The position numbers and the translations under genes are program-made. DNA of 64,000 bases from Candidatus Omnitrophota bacterium. GTDB taxonomy: Bacteria; Omnitrophota; Gorgyraeia; 2-01-FULL-45-10. Of this stretch, positions 21,140-29,515 are shown piece after piece. Under the pieces are notes generated by a model, which was not told the origin of the DNA, searched no databases, and was given only the letters and a program-made list of their open reading frames with translations. Position 1 is the stretch's first letter. Every line of letters begins with the position of its first letter. The DNA lies in assembly GCA_030695905.1 (NCBI GenBank), contig JAUYOL010000015.1, positions 8,518 to 72,517 on the forward strand, read 5' to 3'.

Positions 21140-22560
21140 TGGAAGATCATATAATTACGGATAAAGGTAAGCAGAATTGGCTTATAACTATCGTTTCTTT
21201 GACCGTATTTATGTTCACTCTGGATTACAGCATGCTGAACATATCGCTTCCTGTCATAGCCAATTTTTATGGGGCCAATATCGGTATTGTTTCCCGCCTG
21301 CCTCTTGCATATCTATTGGTAGTTACGAGCACGGTTTTACTATTCGGCAGGCTTGGCGATATCGCAAGCTTCAAAAAGATATTTGTCTGGGGCCTTGGGG
21401 TATTTATAGCGGGAACATTTATTTGCGGCCTCGCGCCTACATTAAATACACTTTTAGCATTTAGGATATTTCAGTGTCTCGGTGAAGCTATGTTCAGCCC
21501 TATGGGCATAGCCATCGTGACGACATTTCTTCCGGATAGCGCCAAGGGCAAAGCGCTCGGGTTAATGGCTACCGCCCAAGGTTTAGGTTTCTGTCTCGGG
21601 CCCATACTGGGTGGATTTATAAATGACCACATCGGCTGGCATAATATATTCTTTGTAAATATCCCCGTAGGAATATTGGCTCTTATGGCCGCGCTCAAAG
21701 TCATACCTTCCAATCAGCCTATGCCGGAATCGAAACGCGTAGATCTTCCCGGAGCGGTACTGATTTTTATTTCGTTATCAACTTTAATTTTCGCGCTGAA
21801 TTCTATCGCGAAATTGGGATTGAAAAATAATATCATAATATCGTGCTTTGTGGTTTCCGCGGCGGCAATGGGAATTTTTATAATGACTGAAAAGAGGACC
21901 TCAAGCCCTATACTCGATCTGTCGCTTTTTCGCAATCCGGACTTTACATTCGCCACAATTTCCGCGCTATGTACCGTATTCGTTTATATGGGGCTGATAT
22001 TTCTGCTGCCGTTTTATTTTAGCATGGTCAGGGGTATGGATATCGTGCACTCGGGACTTTTGCTTATGATACCGGCGATAATGGTGGTTATCTTTGCCCC
22101 TATAGCCGGCAAGATATCGGATATGATTGGTTCCAGGCTGATCTGCTCGGCCGGCATAGGCCTGACAACTTTGGCATTTTTGATATTTTCTATCCTTACG
22201 CCCAAGTCGCCTGTTATATGCGTGATTCCCTCGCTGATACTGGCCGGAGTCGCGATAGGATTTTTTCTCCCCGCGAATAATAAGCTTGTTATGGTCCATG
22301 CGCCTTCAGACAAACAGGGCATGGCATCGGCCGTGTATAAGATACTTAACAGCATAGGCGGCGTATTTGGCATAGCCATACTGCCGCTCGTCCTTATGAG
22401 CAAAATTTATAAGACAGCGGCCCTTGAACATGTGAATATAGCCGCGGCCAGACATTCACCCGAAATATTGATAGCCGGATTTAACGCGGCGTTCCAATTT
22501 GCCATGTTTGTATGCGTGGCGGGCCTGGCAGCAACGATTATGGCAAAGGACAAAAAATAA
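21139..22560 (+). CDS. MFS transporter (14-TM drug:H+ antiporter DHA2-like exporter).
   Basis: GRLGDIASFKKIF (MFS motif A) and about 14 TM helices. Its start overlaps the stop of GH3 copy 2 (TAATGG). Confidence 0.8.
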   Translation: MEDHIITDKGKQNWLITIVSLTVFMFTLDYSMLNISLPVIANFYGANIGIVSRLPLAYLLVVTSTVLLFGRLGDIASFKKIFVWGLGVFIAGTFICGLAPTLNTLLAFRIFQCLGEAMFSPMGIAIVTTFLPDSAKGKALGLMATAQGLGFCLGPILGGFINDHIGWHNIFFVNIPVGILALMAALKVIPSNQPMPESKRVDLPGAVLIFISLSTLIFALNSIAKLGLKNNIIISCFVVSAAAMGIFIMTEKRTSSPILDLSLFRNPDFTFATISALCTVFVYMGLIFLLPFYFSMVRGMDIVHSGLLLMIPAIMVVIFAPIAGKISDMIGSRLICSAGIGLTTLAFLIFSILTPKSPVICVIPSLILAGVAIGFFLPANNKLVMVHAPSDKQGMASAVYKILNSIGGVFGIAILPLVLMSKIYKTAALEHVNIAAARHSPEILIAGFNAAFQFAMFVCVAGLAATIMAKDKK

Positions 22561-23882: not shown

Positions 23883-24240
23883 CGCTATACACAAGATACC
23901 GGAAATAGACTCCATCATGGATGAGAGCCTTGACCAGGCGCGGAGCGCTATAACCGGATTAGCGAAAGAGTATCAGCGCAGGATAGGGGGTATTTCAGAG
24001 GTATTCGTCGTGTTTGACGGCCAAGATGAATACAGGGGGCTTTCTTTAAATAAGCCAAACCAGGTTTTTTCAAGAACTGGCCAGGGCGATAGAAAAGTGA
24101 TAAGGCTGGCCCAGGACAAATCGGACAAGTTTCATGTGGTAGTGGTTTCAGACGATAATCGCGTAGGAAACAGCTGCCGCGCAGCCGGAGCGACGGTGAT
24201 AACGGTAAAGAAGTTTTATGACGCTATTAAAAAATATTAA
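23854..24240 (+). CDS. NYN-domain protein (YacP/Rae1-like putative ribonuclease).
   Basis: N-terminal MKVLIVDGYNAIHK, characteristic of YacP-type NYN domains. 128 aa. Confidence 0.5.
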   Translation: MKVLIVDGYNAIHKIPEIDSIMDESLDQARSAITGLAKEYQRRIGGISEVFVVFDGQDEYRGLSLNKPNQVFSRTGQGDRKVIRLAQDKSDKFHVVVVSDDNRVGNSCRAAGATVITVKKFYDAIKKY

Positions 24241-25450
24241 ACATACATTTAGGGCGCTTCGCTATAGAAACTACAGGCTATATTTTTCAGGCCAGACCAT
24301 ATCGCTTGTAGGTACATGGATGCAGCAGATGGCGATAAGCTGGCTCACATACCGTATAACAAATTCTGTTTTTATGTTGGGGCTTATAGGTTTTTTGGGC
24401 CAGATACCGACGCTTCTATTCACTCCTTTCGCCGGTGTATTCGCGGATAGATACAACAGGCATCGCATCCTTATGATAACCCAGGTATTGGAGATGGTTC
24501 AGGCGCTTATACTCGCGGCGCTTATAATGTCGGGGGTGATTTCTATATGGCATATAGTGATACTTACAATATTTTTAGGTATAGTAACGGCTTTTGACGC
24601 GCCCGCGCGCCATGCGTTTGTGGTGGAAATGGTTTCGACAAAAGAAGATCTAAGCAACGCCATCGCCTTAAACTCGCTGTCATTTAACGCGGCCCGTCTT
24701 ATAGGCCCGGCGATGGCCGGCATACTGGTCGCTATAGTGGGAGAGGGGATGTGCTTTTTCATAAACGGAGTAAGTTATATCGCGGTTATACTGGCTTTGT
24801 TCGGTATGCGTATTACTCCGAGGATGATACAAAAGGAGCATAAGCCGATAATGCATGGTTTCAAAGAAGGGATGCGTTATGTCCTGAATCATCCGACTAT
24901 AAAATCTATAATGCTTATAACGGCGCTGATAAGCCTTGTCGGCATGTCATATGTGGTATTGATGCCGGTATTTGCCAAAGATGTTCTGGGCGGCGGGCCG
25001 GGTACGCTGGGATATCTTATGGGAGTCTCAGGTTTGGGCGCGCTACTCGGTGCGCTATACCTTGCTTCAAGGAAGGATGTCAAGGGGCTTGGCAGAGTGG
25101 CCTTCTTTAACGCGAATTTATTCGGCATGGGCCTTATAGCCTTCTCATTTTCGCGCGTGCTTTGGCTCTCTATGGCAATTCTTGTATTTATAGGATTCGG
25201 GATGATGGCCCAGATGGCGTCTTATAATACGGTTTTGCAAACTATAGTGCATGATGATAAGCGCGGCAGGGTGATGAGCATATTTATGGCTGCTTTCATG
25301 GGCATGGTGCCGTTCGGCTATCTCATCGCCGGATCTTTAGCCAGTTTATTGGGAGCGCCGCGCTCACTTATGATATTTGGAATATTATCTGTCGCCGGTT
25401 CGCTTCTTCTCGTGCGCAAGGCGGATATGGCCAAGGAGGGGTTATGGTAA
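24218..25450 (+). CDS. MFS transporter (12-TM, EntS/MFS_3-like).
   Basis: FAGVFADRYNRHRIL (motif A-like), 12 predicted TM helices, 410 aa. Confidence 0.8.
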   Translation: MTLLKNIKHTFRALRYRNYRLYFSGQTISLVGTWMQQMAISWLTYRITNSVFMLGLIGFLGQIPTLLFTPFAGVFADRYNRHRILMITQVLEMVQALILAALIMSGVISIWHIVILTIFLGIVTAFDAPARHAFVVEMVSTKEDLSNAIALNSLSFNAARLIGPAMAGILVAIVGEGMCFFINGVSYIAVILALFGMRITPRMIQKEHKPIMHGFKEGMRYVLNHPTIKSIMLITALISLVGMSYVVLMPVFAKDVLGGGPGTLGYLMGVSGLGALLGALYLASRKDVKGLGRVAFFNANLFGMGLIAFSFSRVLWLSMAILVFIGFGMMAQMASYNTVLQTIVHDDKRGRVMSIFMAAFMGMVPFGYLIAGSLASLLGAPRSLMIFGILSVAGSLLLVRKADMAKEGLW

Positions 25451-28342: not shown

Positions 28343-28366
28343 ATAAAATCAAATAAGATATTTTTC

Positions 28367-28395
28367 TTGACAAGAAACGCCATGTCTGGTATTAT
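28367..28395 (+). promoter_or_regulatory. Sigma70-like promoter: TTGACA, a 17-bp spacer, then TATTAT. It drives the small cytochrome gene.
   Basis: A consensus -35 at 28367-28372 and a -10 at 28390-28395, immediately followed by the palindrome. Confidence 0.45.
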
Positions 28396-28411
28396 TGAAA
28401 ACGATTTTCAA
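28395..28411. promoter_or_regulatory. 17-bp palindromic operator-like site TTGAAAACGATTTTCAA (copy 1), overlapping the -10/TSS.
   Basis: A perfect 7-3-7 inverted repeat. A near-identical copy lies upstream of the next gene. Confidence 0.45.
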
Positions 28412-28440
28412 TAAGTGAGTGGATCAAGGGGTGAATAAAT

Positions 28441-28701
28441 TTGAAAGTGGTAATTTTGGTAGCCATAATGATCTTGTTTGGCTGTGCCGCCGCGACAAAA
28501 CAACTTAACGCCCAAGCGCGAGACCCGGATTTATTATACCGCGCTAAATGTACGGCGTGTCATAGATTATATCCGCCCCAGGATTATACTTATCAGAAGT
28601 TTCAGGTATACGTAACAAGATACGGTTCAGGCCTTAGTGACGAAGAGCGGCCCAGGCTTTTAGACTATTTAGCAGAGAACGCAAAACAGGAGCGCGAATG
28701 A
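28441..28701 (+). CDS. Small lipoprotein monoheme c-type cytochrome (86 aa).
   Basis: A signal peptide with lipobox LFGC, and a single CxxCH (AKCTACHRL). Confidence 0.5.
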   Translation: MKVVILVAIMILFGCAAATKQLNAQARDPDLLYRAKCTACHRLYPPQDYTYQKFQVYVTRYGSGLSDEERPRLLDYLAENAKQERE

Positions 28702-28757
28702 AGAACAAAAATAGGTAATAATTAAGAGGGGAGGGTAGAAATTTTTTTAAGATATAA

Positions 28758-28774
28758 TTGAAAATGATTTTCAA
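28758..28774. promoter_or_regulatory. 17-bp palindromic operator-like site TTGAAAATGATTTTCAA (copy 2), overlapping a TATAAT (28753-28758).
   Basis: It matches the palindrome at 28395-28411 at 16 of 17 positions, in the same position relative to a -10 hexamer. An RBS aggagg follows. Confidence 0.45.
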
Positions 28775-28789
28775 TAAAAGGAGGATAAG

Positions 28790-29515
28790 ATGTTTAAGAA
28801 AATAACAGCTGTTTTTATTGTGTGCCTTTTAGGCATCACATGCATTTCAGAAAATGTTTTTGCTGATAGAAGAAGCTATGTATGGACCTATGAGTACCAG
28901 ACCATGCCCAAAGGGATGGCCGAGATTGAATACTATTTGACAGAGGAGCAGAAAAACATAAATAAAGCTAAGCCCAATACCTGGAAACACTGGTTTGAGC
29001 TGGAATACGGCATCACGGACCATTGGGATATAAGCATGTATCAGCAGTTCAAACAGTCCAATACAATTTCATCCAGCACATTCGAATACGACGGGTTTAA
29101 GGTCAGAACAAGGTATCGATTTTTTGAGAAGGATAAACTGCCCGTTGACACCATGTTATACCTTGAATATATAAGGAACGATAATCTCGAGAAGCCGAAT
29201 GTGCTGGAGGGGAAAATCATCTTTGCCAAAGATATTGCCAATTTTAATATAGCCTATAATCAGATATTGAAACAGGAATTGGCCTATGCCGGCAAAACCG
29301 AACATGAATATGCGGCAGGCGTAAGTTACGAAATAACACCGGCATTTAAAATCGGGATTGAATCGAAGGGCAACTATACGGACCGAAAATATTATGTCGG
29401 CCCGACTATAGGATGGGCGTCGTCCAAATTCTGGGTTTCTGCGGGTGTTGCAGCCGGACTTAATGAGCAAAGCGATGATATGCAGGTCAGGATGATAATG
29501 GGATTCCTTTTCTGA
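28790..29515 (+). CDS. Outer-membrane beta-barrel protein (small, 241 aa).
   Basis: A signal peptide, alternating amphipathic beta-strand pattern, aromatic girdle residues, and a C-terminal ..GFLF (terminal Phe OMP signature). Confidence 0.45.
   Translation: MFKKITAVFIVCLLGITCISENVFADRRSYVWTYEYQTMPKGMAEIEYYLTEEQKNINKAKPNTWKHWFELEYGITDHWDISMYQQFKQSNTISSSTFEYDGFKVRTRYRFFEKDKLPVDTMLYLEYIRNDNLEKPNVLEGKIIFAKDIANFNIAYNQILKQELAYAGKTEHEYAAGVSYEITPAFKIGIESKGNYTDRKYYVGPTIGWASSKFWVSAGVAAGLNEQSDDMQVRMIMGFLF

What the first reader, a model, noticed from the sequence alone, without database searches (positions are those of the whole stretch)
28367..28789. Identical 17-bp palindrome (TTGAAAAyGATTTTCAA) overlapping the -10 of two consecutive promoters
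Copy 1 is at 28395-28411, directly after a TTGACA-17-TATTAT promoter. Copy 2 is at 28758-28774, directly after a TATAAT at 28753-28758 and before the RBS aggagg. It is a perfect 7-3-7 inverted repeat with 16 of 17 positions identical between copies, placed at the -10/TSS position typical of repressor operators. The two genes it would control are a monoheme lipoprotein cytochrome and an OM beta-barrel. The half-site TTGAAAA does not match Fur, Rex, FNR or CRP consensus as I recall them, so the cognate regulator is unknown.
Basis: seen in the sequence. Interest (0 to 1): 0.6.

Follow-up and report, generated by a model that had tools for sequence, protein, structure and literature searches.

The report
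Two Fur (iron repressor) operator sites
The two near-identical palindromes are ordinary binding sites for the iron-sensing repressor Fur, of the sequence variant already described in sulfate- and metal-reducing bacteria, here switching on a small haem lipoprotein and an outer-membrane pore of an uncultured Omnitrophota bacterium when iron is scarce.

Summary
TTGAAAACGATTTTCAA (28395-28411) and TTGAAAATGATTTTCAA (28758-28774) are the only such sites in 64 kb, and each abuts a -10 hexamer. The claim that they do not match Fur is wrong. They fit the published delta-proteobacterial Fur box WTGAAAATNATTTTCAW (copy 2 perfectly, copy 1 with one mismatch). That box is the classical 7-1-7 Fur core with A for T at one position per half-site. 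On a matrix of 19 published sites they score 25.3 and 24.0 bits (training 18.0-24.3; next-best window site 13.7). The window is from a Candidatus Omnitrophota MAG. Of 80 genomes with an ortholog of the downstream barrel gene, 52 have a box within 200 nt upstream (0.26 expected from shuffles; 0.3% for other genes). The box type changes with lineage, to the classical TGATAATGATTATCA in Elusimicrobiota. The usual unit is box-fur-box-barrel-feoB. Close relatives have fur-cytochrome-barrel with three boxes, and three Omnitrophota fur genes carry a 17-mer identical to copy 2. The window has no fur; its first promoter looks like a fur promoter fused to the cytochrome gene. Verdict: a known kind of operator in a new phylum, of low interest. 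The side result is an unannotated 12-stranded barrel family linked to fur and feoB across many phyla.

The parts
28367..28372 (+). -35 hexamer TTGACA of promoter 1
   Evidence: TTGACA-17-TATTAT, 11/12 with TG. It aligns with the -35 of fur promoters in relatives L081, L084, L085 and L086.
28390..28395 (+). -10 hexamer TATTAT of promoter 1; its last T is the first base of Fur box 1
28395..28411 (.). Fur box 1, TTGAAAACGATTTTCAA. It has one mismatch to WTGAAAATNATTTTCAW and lies 46 nt before the cytochrome start codon.
   Evidence: 24.0 bits. It is 16/17 identical to the box upstream of fur in L086, TTGAAAACGATTTTCAG.
28441..28701 (+). 86-aa lipoprotein with a single CxxCH haem-binding motif (TTG start); first Fur-controlled gene
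   Evidence: CxxCH is invariant and the lipobox Cys15 nearly invariant in 23 homologs. NCBI names it 'cytochrome c'. Pfam hits are below cut-off.
28742..28748 (+). T7 tract upstream of the second -10, conserved in relatives in place of a -35
   Evidence: 'tttttt(t)a-N7/8-taaTTGAAAA' recurs upstream of the cytochrome and barrel genes in L081 and L083-L086.
28753..28758 (+). -10 hexamer TATAAT of promoter 2; its last T is the first base of Fur box 2
   Evidence: No -35 was found by the scan.
28758..28774 (.). Fur box 2, TTGAAAATGATTTTCAA. It is a perfect match to WTGAAAATNATTTTCAW and lies 32 nt before the barrel start codon.
   Evidence: 25.3 bits. It is identical to the 17-mer upstream of fur in Omnitrophota loci L046, L053 and L072. 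A box at the same position is conserved in L081 and L083-L086.
28779..28784 (+). Shine-Dalgarno AGGAGG of the barrel gene
   Evidence: conserved 'aaaaggagg' in relatives.
28790..29515 (+). 241-aa outer-membrane 12-stranded beta-barrel of an unannotated family; second Fur-controlled gene
   Evidence: no Pfam or NCBIfam family; 652 homologs; pLDDT 86.9, 12 strands; best matches FapF and NanC; flanked by fur and feoB in other genomes.

Best explanation
Both palindromes are operators for the iron-responsive repressor Fur, in the TGAAAAT-N-ATTTTCA variant of the 7-1-7 Fur box. When iron is sufficient, a metal-loaded Fur dimer binds each site. Because each site starts on the last base of the -10 hexamer and covers the expected transcription start, bound Fur blocks RNA polymerase. 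When iron is scarce, Fur releases and both genes are transcribed: the haem lipoprotein and the 12-stranded outer-membrane barrel. In most related genomes these genes belong to a fur-(cytochrome)-barrel-feoB ferrous-iron uptake module. Fur must act in trans here, because this genome has lost fur from the locus. What is shown: the sequence match, the position, the conservation, and the linkage to fur and feoB. What is inferred: Fur binding, iron dependence, the transcription start site, and the presence of fur elsewhere in this genome.
For: (1) The published delta-proteobacterial Fur box is WTGAAAATNATTTTCAW. Copy 2 matches it perfectly and copy 1 has one mismatch. The published site lists include tTGAAAATtATTTTCAa and cTGAAAAcGATTTTCAT, the latter upstream of a porin gene (PMC545781). 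(2) The two sites score 25.3 and 24.0 bits on a matrix of 19 published sites (training range 18.0-24.3); the next-best window site scores 13.7 and the shuffle maximum is 19.6. (3) 52 of 80 genomes with a barrel ortholog have a box of at least 15 bits within 200 nt upstream. Dinucleotide shuffles give 0.26, and 2 of 633 other ORFs in the same loci have one. (4) Most of the 41 other strong boxes in those loci lie just upstream of a ~145-aa ORF next to the barrel. All nine such ORFs tested are PF01475 FUR (E 1e-32 to 1e-40), one further boxed gene is feoB and another is an ArsP_1 permease. L046, L053 and L072 have a 17-mer identical to copy 2 upstream of fur. (5) fur lies directly upstream of the barrel in 45 of 75 loci, and feoB lies downstream in 23 of 71, often 0-50 nt after the barrel stop. 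L085 reads fur-cytochrome-barrel-OMP-feoB-feoA. (6) The box type tracks lineage: TGAAAAT in Omnitrophota and Planctomycetia, classical TGATAATGATTATCA in Elusimicrobiota, with hybrid sites such as TTGAAAATGATTATCAA. This indicates one regulator family with drifting specificity. (7) The close relatives L081 and L083-L086 conserve the box in the same register after a -10-like hexamer, while the spacer sequence and the central bases vary. Half-sites degenerate independently, without compensatory changes. (8) These Fur proteins rank iron Fur above PerR above Zur in NCBIfam, and their best solved relatives are C. jejuni and M. gryphiswaldense Fur. (9) Experimental anchors for the motif type: a D. 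alaskensis G20 fur mutant derepresses most motif-predicted targets, with sites near mapped TSSs (PMC4045070); and a single Fur dimer binds a 7-1-7 site in the MgFur-feoAB1 structure (PMC11353095).
Against: There is no fur or feoB gene in the 64-kb window, so the cognate regulator is not shown to exist in this genome. No binding or expression data exist for any Omnitrophota. The TSSs are not mapped, and promoter 2 lacks a recognisable -35. Sequence alone does not separate iron Fur from Zur or PerR: the PDB scores are 99, 94 and 90 bits, and all NCBIfam scores are below the equivalog cut-offs. Inducing a haem protein under iron starvation is somewhat counter-intuitive.
Confidence: 0.88

Rival explanations
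1. The sites are operators of a Fur-family paralog that senses something other than iron (Zur, Mur/Mn, Nur or PerR) and recognises a Fur-like box.
For: The fur-like genes next to the barrel score almost as well against solved Zur (3mwm, 94 bits) and PerR (2fe3, 90 bits) as against iron Fur (99 bits). All NCBIfam equivalog scores are below their cut-offs. One boxed neighbour is an ArsP_1-type permease, not an obvious iron gene.
Against: The boxed module includes feoB/feoA in 35 loci, and one boxed gene is itself feoB. The published Zur and PerR motifs of the delta-proteobacteria differ (ATGCAACNNNGTTGCAT for Zur). The NCBIfam ranking is iron Fur (114-131 bits) above PerR (77-96) above Zur (44-59). 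In other phyla the same gene carries the canonical iron-Fur box.
Confidence: 0.07
2. The boxes are relic operators. fur was recently deleted from this locus, the genome has no other Fur, and the two genes are now expressed constitutively.
For: There is no Fur-family gene in the window. Promoter 1 is a chimera of a fur promoter and the cytochrome RBS/start region. The closest relative, L083, still shows the last codons of fur (...CS*) upstream of its cytochrome box, so the loss is recent and there has been little time for decay.
Against: Only 64 kb of the genome was seen. Both boxes are intact, and copy 2 reaches the highest matrix score seen in any locus (26.8 bits with the uniform background used for the loci). 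Fur paralogs are common in bacteria (PMC545781).
Confidence: 0.04
3. The palindromes act at the RNA level (5'-UTR hairpin or terminator between the two genes), or are chance AT-rich promoter sequence.
For: They can fold as hairpins: -5.8 kcal/mol (z -4.4) and -3.8 kcal/mol (z -1.8).
Against: The stems are all A-U and weak, and no U-tract follows. No terminator-like site and no Rfam match was found. In relatives the half-sites change independently, without compensatory changes (for example TTGAAAATGGATTTCAA, TTGAAAATCAATTTCAA). The same motif also occurs upstream of fur and feoB promoters in many phyla. Chance is excluded.
Confidence: 0.01

Closest known systems
Delta-proteobacterial Fur box (dFUR-box, WTGAAAATNATTTTCAW; Rodionov et al. 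2004, Genome Biol 5:R90, PMC545781; used in RegPrecise; supported by the D. alaskensis G20 fur mutant, PMC4045070)
   Same: The 17-bp consensus is identical (copy 2 matches 17/17, copy 1 16/17). The distance to the start codon is similar (-32 and -46, against mostly -30 to -65 for the listed single sites). The target classes are the same: fur itself, feoAB, hypothetical porins, and a small cytochrome-c-signature gene (genX) next to feoAB.
   Different: The host is a Candidatus Omnitrophota (PVC group), not a delta-proteobacterium. Each promoter here has a single 7-1-7 site rather than the 6-bp-shifted overlapping pairs typical of Desulfovibrio. No regulator gene is present in the window.
Classical Fur box (E. 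coli 19-mer GATAATGATAATCATTATC; B. subtilis 7-1-7 core TGATAAT-N-ATTATCA; PMC11353095)
   Same: It shares the 7-1-7 inverted-repeat architecture, with 12 of 14 half-site bases identical, and it overlaps the core promoter. A single isolated 7-1-7 site implies one Fur dimer, as in the MgFur-feoAB1 operator complex. Orthologs of the same barrel gene in Elusimicrobiota and some Nitrospirota carry exactly this classical box.
   Different: There is A instead of T at position 4 of each half-site (TGAAAAT against TGATAAT). This is why a comparison with the E. coli consensus from memory fails.
Fur-controlled dedicated porin genes next to feo: feoP of the feoPABC operon in Acidithiobacillus (PMC2631029), and the porin-feoA-feoA-feoB2 operon of G. 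sulfurreducens (PMC545781)
   Same: [quoted passage not shown] This suggests a dedicated outer-membrane entry route for Fe2+.
   Different: Those porins belong to the OprB family (PF04966). The barrel here matches no Pfam or NCBIfam family and is a small 12-stranded barrel whose structure is closest to FapF and NanC. In the window it is not adjacent to feo.

Membership tests
Fur box (operator of the iron-responsive Fur repressor) | 7-1-7 inverted repeat with TGAnAAT-type half-sites that matches the lineage-appropriate consensus | tested here: met
   Copy 2 matches WTGAAAATNATTTTCAW at 17/17 and copy 1 at 16/17. Scores are 25.3 and 24.0 bits on a matrix of 19 published sites (training 18.0-24.3).
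Fur box (operator of the iron-responsive Fur repressor) | Placement over the core promoter (-35/-10/TSS) of the regulated gene | tested here: inconclusive
   Each box starts on the last base of a -10 hexamer. Promoter 1 is an 11/12 sigma-70 match; promoter 2 has only a -10. The same register is conserved in five relatives. The TSSs are not mapped.
Fur box (operator of the iron-responsive Fur repressor) | The same motif upstream of fur (autoregulation) and of iron-uptake genes in the same lineage | tested here: met
   The box lies 25-40 nt upstream of PF01475 fur genes in Omnitrophota and other phyla (9 of 9 tested), and upstream of feoB in L036. The 17-mer upstream of fur in L046, L053 and L072 is identical to copy 2. 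The barrel-feoB operon lies downstream of the box.
Fur box (operator of the iron-responsive Fur repressor) | Conservation upstream of orthologs beyond what composition would give | tested here: met
   52 of 80 loci have a box, against 0.26 expected from dinucleotide shuffles and 0.3% for other ORFs in the same loci. The density is 37-fold higher in the 400 nt upstream of the barrel than elsewhere.
Fur box (operator of the iron-responsive Fur repressor) | A cognate Fur protein encoded in the same genome | tested here: inconclusive
   No Fur-family ORF is found in the 64-kb window using E. coli Fur, B. subtilis PerR or clade-matched Fur probes. The rest of the MAG could not be searched.
Fur box (operator of the iron-responsive Fur repressor) | Metal-dependent binding by Fur and iron-dependent repression | not testable with these tools
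   This needs EMSA or footprinting, or expression data. The only indirect support comes from Desulfovibrio (PMC4045070).
OprB/FeoP-type porin (PF04966) | Sequence match to the OprB family profile | tested here: not met
   The Pfam scan of the 241-aa protein gives only a sub-threshold OMP_b-brl hit (E 0.023, 15.3 bits against a cut-off of 28.7). There is no OprB hit and NCBIfam finds nothing.
Class I c-type cytochrome (PF00034 / PF13442) | CxxCH haem attachment motif | tested here: met
   C37-x-x-C40-H41 is invariant in 23 homologs.
Class I c-type cytochrome (PF00034 / PF13442) | Profile score above the gathering threshold, and a conserved distal Met (or His) ligand | tested here: not met
   PF13442 scores 17.4 bits (cut-off 27) and PF00034 scores 15.7 bits (cut-off 21.3). 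The mature protein has no conserved Met or second His, while several Tyr and Lys residues are invariant.

The most novel reading that the evidence does not exclude
The operator itself is conventional, but the genes it controls may form an undescribed, phylum-spanning outer-membrane front end for Feo-type ferrous-iron uptake. The core part is a 12-stranded barrel with no Pfam or NCBIfam family, wedged between fur and feoB in Omnitrophota, Planctomycetota, Saganbacteria/WOR-1, Nitrospirota, Elusimicrobiota, Zixibacteria and others. In one Omnitrophota clade it is joined by a lipid-anchored CxxCH protein lacking the usual Met/His distal ligand, which could reduce or hand over iron at the pore. 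In the window's lineage fur appears to have been excised between two directly repeated Fur boxes, leaving the module under trans control.
Probability: 0.4. Interest if true: 0.5.

Novelty: new member of a known kind. Interest (0 to 1): 0.25.

Why it matters
For the finding as posed, it matters mainly as a correction: the 'unknown regulator' is Fur, so nothing new about regulation needs to be invoked. It extends the TGAAAAT-type Fur box, first defined in delta-proteobacteria, to Omnitrophota and Planctomycetia. It also shows the box grading into the classical TGATAAT type across phyla upstream of one orthologous gene, which makes that gene a convenient natural series for studying drift in Fur specificity. 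The practical by-product is an annotation. A widespread hypothetical outer-membrane barrel (652 homologs, no family assignment) can be labelled Fur-regulated and Feo-associated, giving a testable candidate for how Fe2+ crosses the outer membrane in many uncultured anaerobes.

Tried and rejected
(1) I probed the window for a regulator with E. coli Fur and B. subtilis PerR (sequences from memory), then with a clade-matched Fur and a FeoB. Nothing was found. (2) The third-best matrix hit at 21820 lies inside a 473-aa ORF and scores at chance level, so I rejected it. (3) An RNA hairpin or terminator reading was rejected: the stems are weak and all A-U, there is no U-tract, the terminator scan finds nothing, there is no Rfam match, and there are no compensatory changes. 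(4) A chance AT-rich word was rejected by shuffles and by the other-ORF control. (5) I initially assumed the organism was a delta-proteobacterium because of the motif. The source names on the protein hits say Candidatus Omnitrophota, so I re-tested the Fur assignment within that phylum rather than taking it from the literature. (6) Pfam and NCBIfam gave no family for the barrel or the cytochrome. (8) I ran no further search on looking for fur elsewhere in the same MAG, because hits cannot be assigned to one MAG with these tools; the look-up of the window's own protein returned only a Logan contig. (9) A literature search for Omnitrophota plus 'ferric uptake regulator' returned nothing. The primary experimental papers on Geobacter and D. 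vulgaris Fur regulons did not turn up in the searches made.

Full report
OBSERVATION. They differ at one position, and each is a perfect 7-3-7 inverted repeat. With flanks, copy 2 is a perfect 9-1-9 palindrome (ATTGAAAAT-G-ATTTTCAAT). No other place in the 64 kb comes within three mismatches. Copy 1 starts on the last T of the -10 of a near-consensus promoter: TTGACA 28367-28372, 17 nt, TATTAT 28390-28395, 11 of 12 matches with a TG. Copy 2 starts on the last T of TATAAT 28753-28758. The scan finds no -35 for this second promoter; a T7 tract sits there instead and is conserved in relatives. The same sequence is present in an independent Logan assembly.

WHAT THE MOTIF IS. Rodionov et al. 2004 (PMC545781) could not find E. 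coli-type Fur boxes in delta-proteobacteria. From feoAB and fur upstream regions they derived a 17-bp palindrome, WTGAAAATNATTTTCAW. Copy 2 matches it at every specified position, and copy 1 has one mismatch (C at position 8). Their site table contains tTGAAAATtATTTTCAa (D. vulgaris) and cTGAAAAcGATTTTCAT (upstream of a Desulfuromonas porin gene). I built a position matrix from the 19 published sites visible in that table. On it the window sites score 25.3 and 24.0 bits. The training sites span 18.0-24.3, the next-best window position scores 13.7 (inside an ORF), and the maximum over 50 shuffled windows is 19.6. The motif is the classical 7-1-7 Fur core TGATAAT-N-ATTATCA (PMC11353095) with A for T at position 4 of each half-site.

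THE ORGANISM IS NOT A DELTA-PROTEOBACTERIUM. Both downstream proteins have 100%-identical entries from an NCBI 'Candidatus Omnitrophota bacterium' MAG. Their closest homologs are from Omnitrophota MAGs or unnamed metagenome contigs. The literature motif could therefore not simply be transferred, so I tested it within this lineage.

COMPARATIVE TEST. A genome-collection scan with an alignment of barrel homologs returned 80 loci (1.09 Mb). They come from Omnitrophota, Planctomycetota, Saganbacteria/WOR-1, Margulisiibacteriota, Nitrospirota, Elusimicrobiota, Zixibacteria, Firestonebacteria, Aminicenantes, Lentisphaerae, Thermodesulfobacteriota and others. Boxes of at least 15 bits are 37-fold denser in the 400 nt upstream of the barrel gene than elsewhere in these loci. 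In 52 of 80 loci there is at least one such box in the 200 nt upstream. Dinucleotide-preserving shuffles of the same regions give 0.26 loci on average (maximum 2), and only 2 of 633 other long ORFs in the same loci have one. The box type tracks phylogeny. It is TGAAAAT...ATTTTCA in most Omnitrophota (12 of 18) and all four Planctomycetia, and the textbook ATGATAATGATTATCAT in Elusimicrobiota. Hybrid sites occur, such as TTGAAAATGATTATCAA and TTGATAATGATTTTCAA. One orthologous gene thus carries the classical Fur box in some phyla and the TGAAAAT variant in others. This is what one regulator family with drifting specificity would produce.

THE REGULATOR. Of the 41 strong boxes (at least 18 bits) that were not upstream of the barrel, most lie just ahead of a ~145-aa ORF directly upstream of the barrel. 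All nine such ORFs tested are Fur family (PF01475, E 1e-32 to 1e-40). One further boxed gene is feoB and another is an ArsP_1 permease. Omnitrophota loci L046, L053 and L072 have, upstream of fur, a 17-mer identical to window copy 2. fur lies directly upstream of the barrel in 45 of 75 loci with enough sequence. feoB lies downstream in 23 of 71, often starting 0-50 nt after the barrel stop. NCBIfam ranks these regulators as iron Fur (114-131 bits) above PerR (77-96) above Zur (44-59), all below the equivalog cut-offs. The best solved relatives are C. jejuni and M. gryphiswaldense Fur, but Zur and PerR structures score only slightly lower. The iron assignment therefore rests mainly on the feo linkage and on the motif, not on the protein sequence.

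CLOSE RELATIVES AND THE STATE OF THE WINDOW. In relatives with 75-83% identical barrels (L081, L084, L085, L086) the order is fur-cytochrome-barrel. L085 continues with a second OMP, a split feoB, feoA and an Fe-SOD. These loci carry three boxes, upstream of fur, the cytochrome and the barrel. Each begins right after a -10-like hexamer, in the register '...taaTTGAAAAnnnnTTTTCAAtaa'. The boxes are conserved while the central bases and spacers vary. Half-sites change independently, with no compensatory changes, as expected for a protein site rather than an RNA stem. The window has no fur or feoB. Alignment shows that its promoter 1 is a chimera. The -35, the spacer, the -10 and the left part of the box align with the fur promoters of relatives. 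The RBS and start region aligns with the 3' end of their fur-cytochrome spacer. The closest relative, L083, has the same nuo genes downstream and still begins with the last codons of a fur gene (...TGCTCTTAA, matching L086). The simplest reading is a recent deletion of fur by recombination between the two directly repeated boxes. That would leave one hybrid operator driving the cytochrome gene. This is an inference.

THE CONTROLLED GENES. The 86-aa protein has a lipobox Cys and an invariant CxxCH, but no conserved Met or second His, and its Pfam scores are below cut-off. The 241-aa protein matches no Pfam or NCBIfam family. It models confidently (pLDDT 86.9) as a signal peptide plus a 12-stranded barrel. 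It most resembles FapF and the NanC porin (TM 0.6-0.7). There is precedent for a Fur-boxed porin gene ahead of feoAB: feoP in Acidithiobacillus (PMC2631029), the porin-feoAAB operon of G. sulfurreducens, and a Fur-boxed cytochrome-c-signature gene (genX) beside it (PMC545781). Those porins are OprB family, which this barrel is not.

MECHANISM. Shown: sequence identity with a defined Fur-box class, overlap with the -10, conservation, and linkage with fur and feoB. Drawn from established knowledge: metal-loaded Fur dimers bind 7-1-7 sites and occlude the promoter, and a single isolated 7-1-7 site binds one dimer (PMC11353095). In D. alaskensis a fur mutant derepresses most targets predicted from this motif type, and the sites lie near mapped TSSs (PMC4045070). 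Inferred here: under iron sufficiency, Fur supplied in trans represses both promoters, and iron limitation induces the haem lipoprotein and the pore. These probably feed Fe2+ to Feo.

RIVALS. A non-iron Fur paralog is not excluded by protein sequence, but the feo linkage and the distinct published Zur and PerR motifs argue against it. Relic operators left after loss of the only fur cannot be excluded from 64 kb. RNA-level function is unlikely: the hairpins are -5.8 and -3.8 kcal/mol and all A-U, there is no U-tract, the terminator scan finds nothing, and there is no Rfam hit. Chance is excluded.

VERDICT. This is a textbook kind of element, a Fur operator pair, in a phylum where I found no published Fur regulon. 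It is a new member of a known kind, and interest in the operator itself is low. The side results are worth recording: an unannotated barrel family associated with fur and feoB across many phyla, and the apparent box-to-box excision of fur.

Noticed in passing
window 28343-28445; compare L086:4770-4862, L086:5283-5420 and L083:1-45: Promoter 1 is a chimera. Its -35, -10 and left box half align with relatives' fur promoters, and its RBS/start region aligns with the end of their fur-cytochrome spacer. The closest relative, L083, still has the last fur codons (...CS*). This suggests that fur was recently excised by recombination between two directly repeated Fur boxes.
   Followed up: partly
window 28790-29515; loci L001-L086: The 241-aa barrel has 652 homologs but no Pfam or NCBIfam family. 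It sits between fur and feoB in many phyla and models as a 12-stranded barrel resembling FapF and NanC. It is a candidate dedicated outer-membrane pore for Feo-type Fe2+ uptake.
   Followed up: partly
window 28441-28701 (alignment A4): The 86-aa 'cytochrome c' lipoprotein has an invariant CxxCH but no conserved Met or second His for the distal haem ligand. Six Tyr and two Lys residues are invariant. Only 30 homologs were found, all in contigs that also carry the closest barrel homologs where long enough to tell.
   Followed up: partly
L085:7664-9581; also L002, L003, L005, L006, L008, L013, L019, L026, L049, L053: In many loci, mostly Omnitrophota with some Saganbacteria and Planctomycetia, feoB is split into two adjacent ORFs: an N-terminal G-domain of ~160 aa and a membrane part of ~480 aa. 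It recurs in many independent MAGs, so it is probably a real lineage feature rather than a frameshift error.
   Followed up: no
L046:2933-3862; L084:1-534: An ArsP_1-type permease (PF03773) lies between fur and the barrel in L046 and has its own strong Fur box (TTGAAAATGGTTTTCAT). A gene of the same family lies about 5 kb upstream of fur in L084. It may be a further member of the regulon.
   Followed up: no
window 28742-28748; L081, L083-L086 upstream of the cytochrome and barrel genes: A conserved T6-7 tract followed by A lies 7-8 nt upstream of the -10-like hexamer, where a -35 would be expected. The cytochrome and barrel promoters of this clade may use an unusual upstream element.
   Followed up: no
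window 24218-25450: This is an MFS_3 family transporter (PF05977, the family of the enterobactin exporter EntS; E 3e-67), 3 kb upstream of the Fur-controlled genes. It has no Fur box of its own.
   Followed up: no
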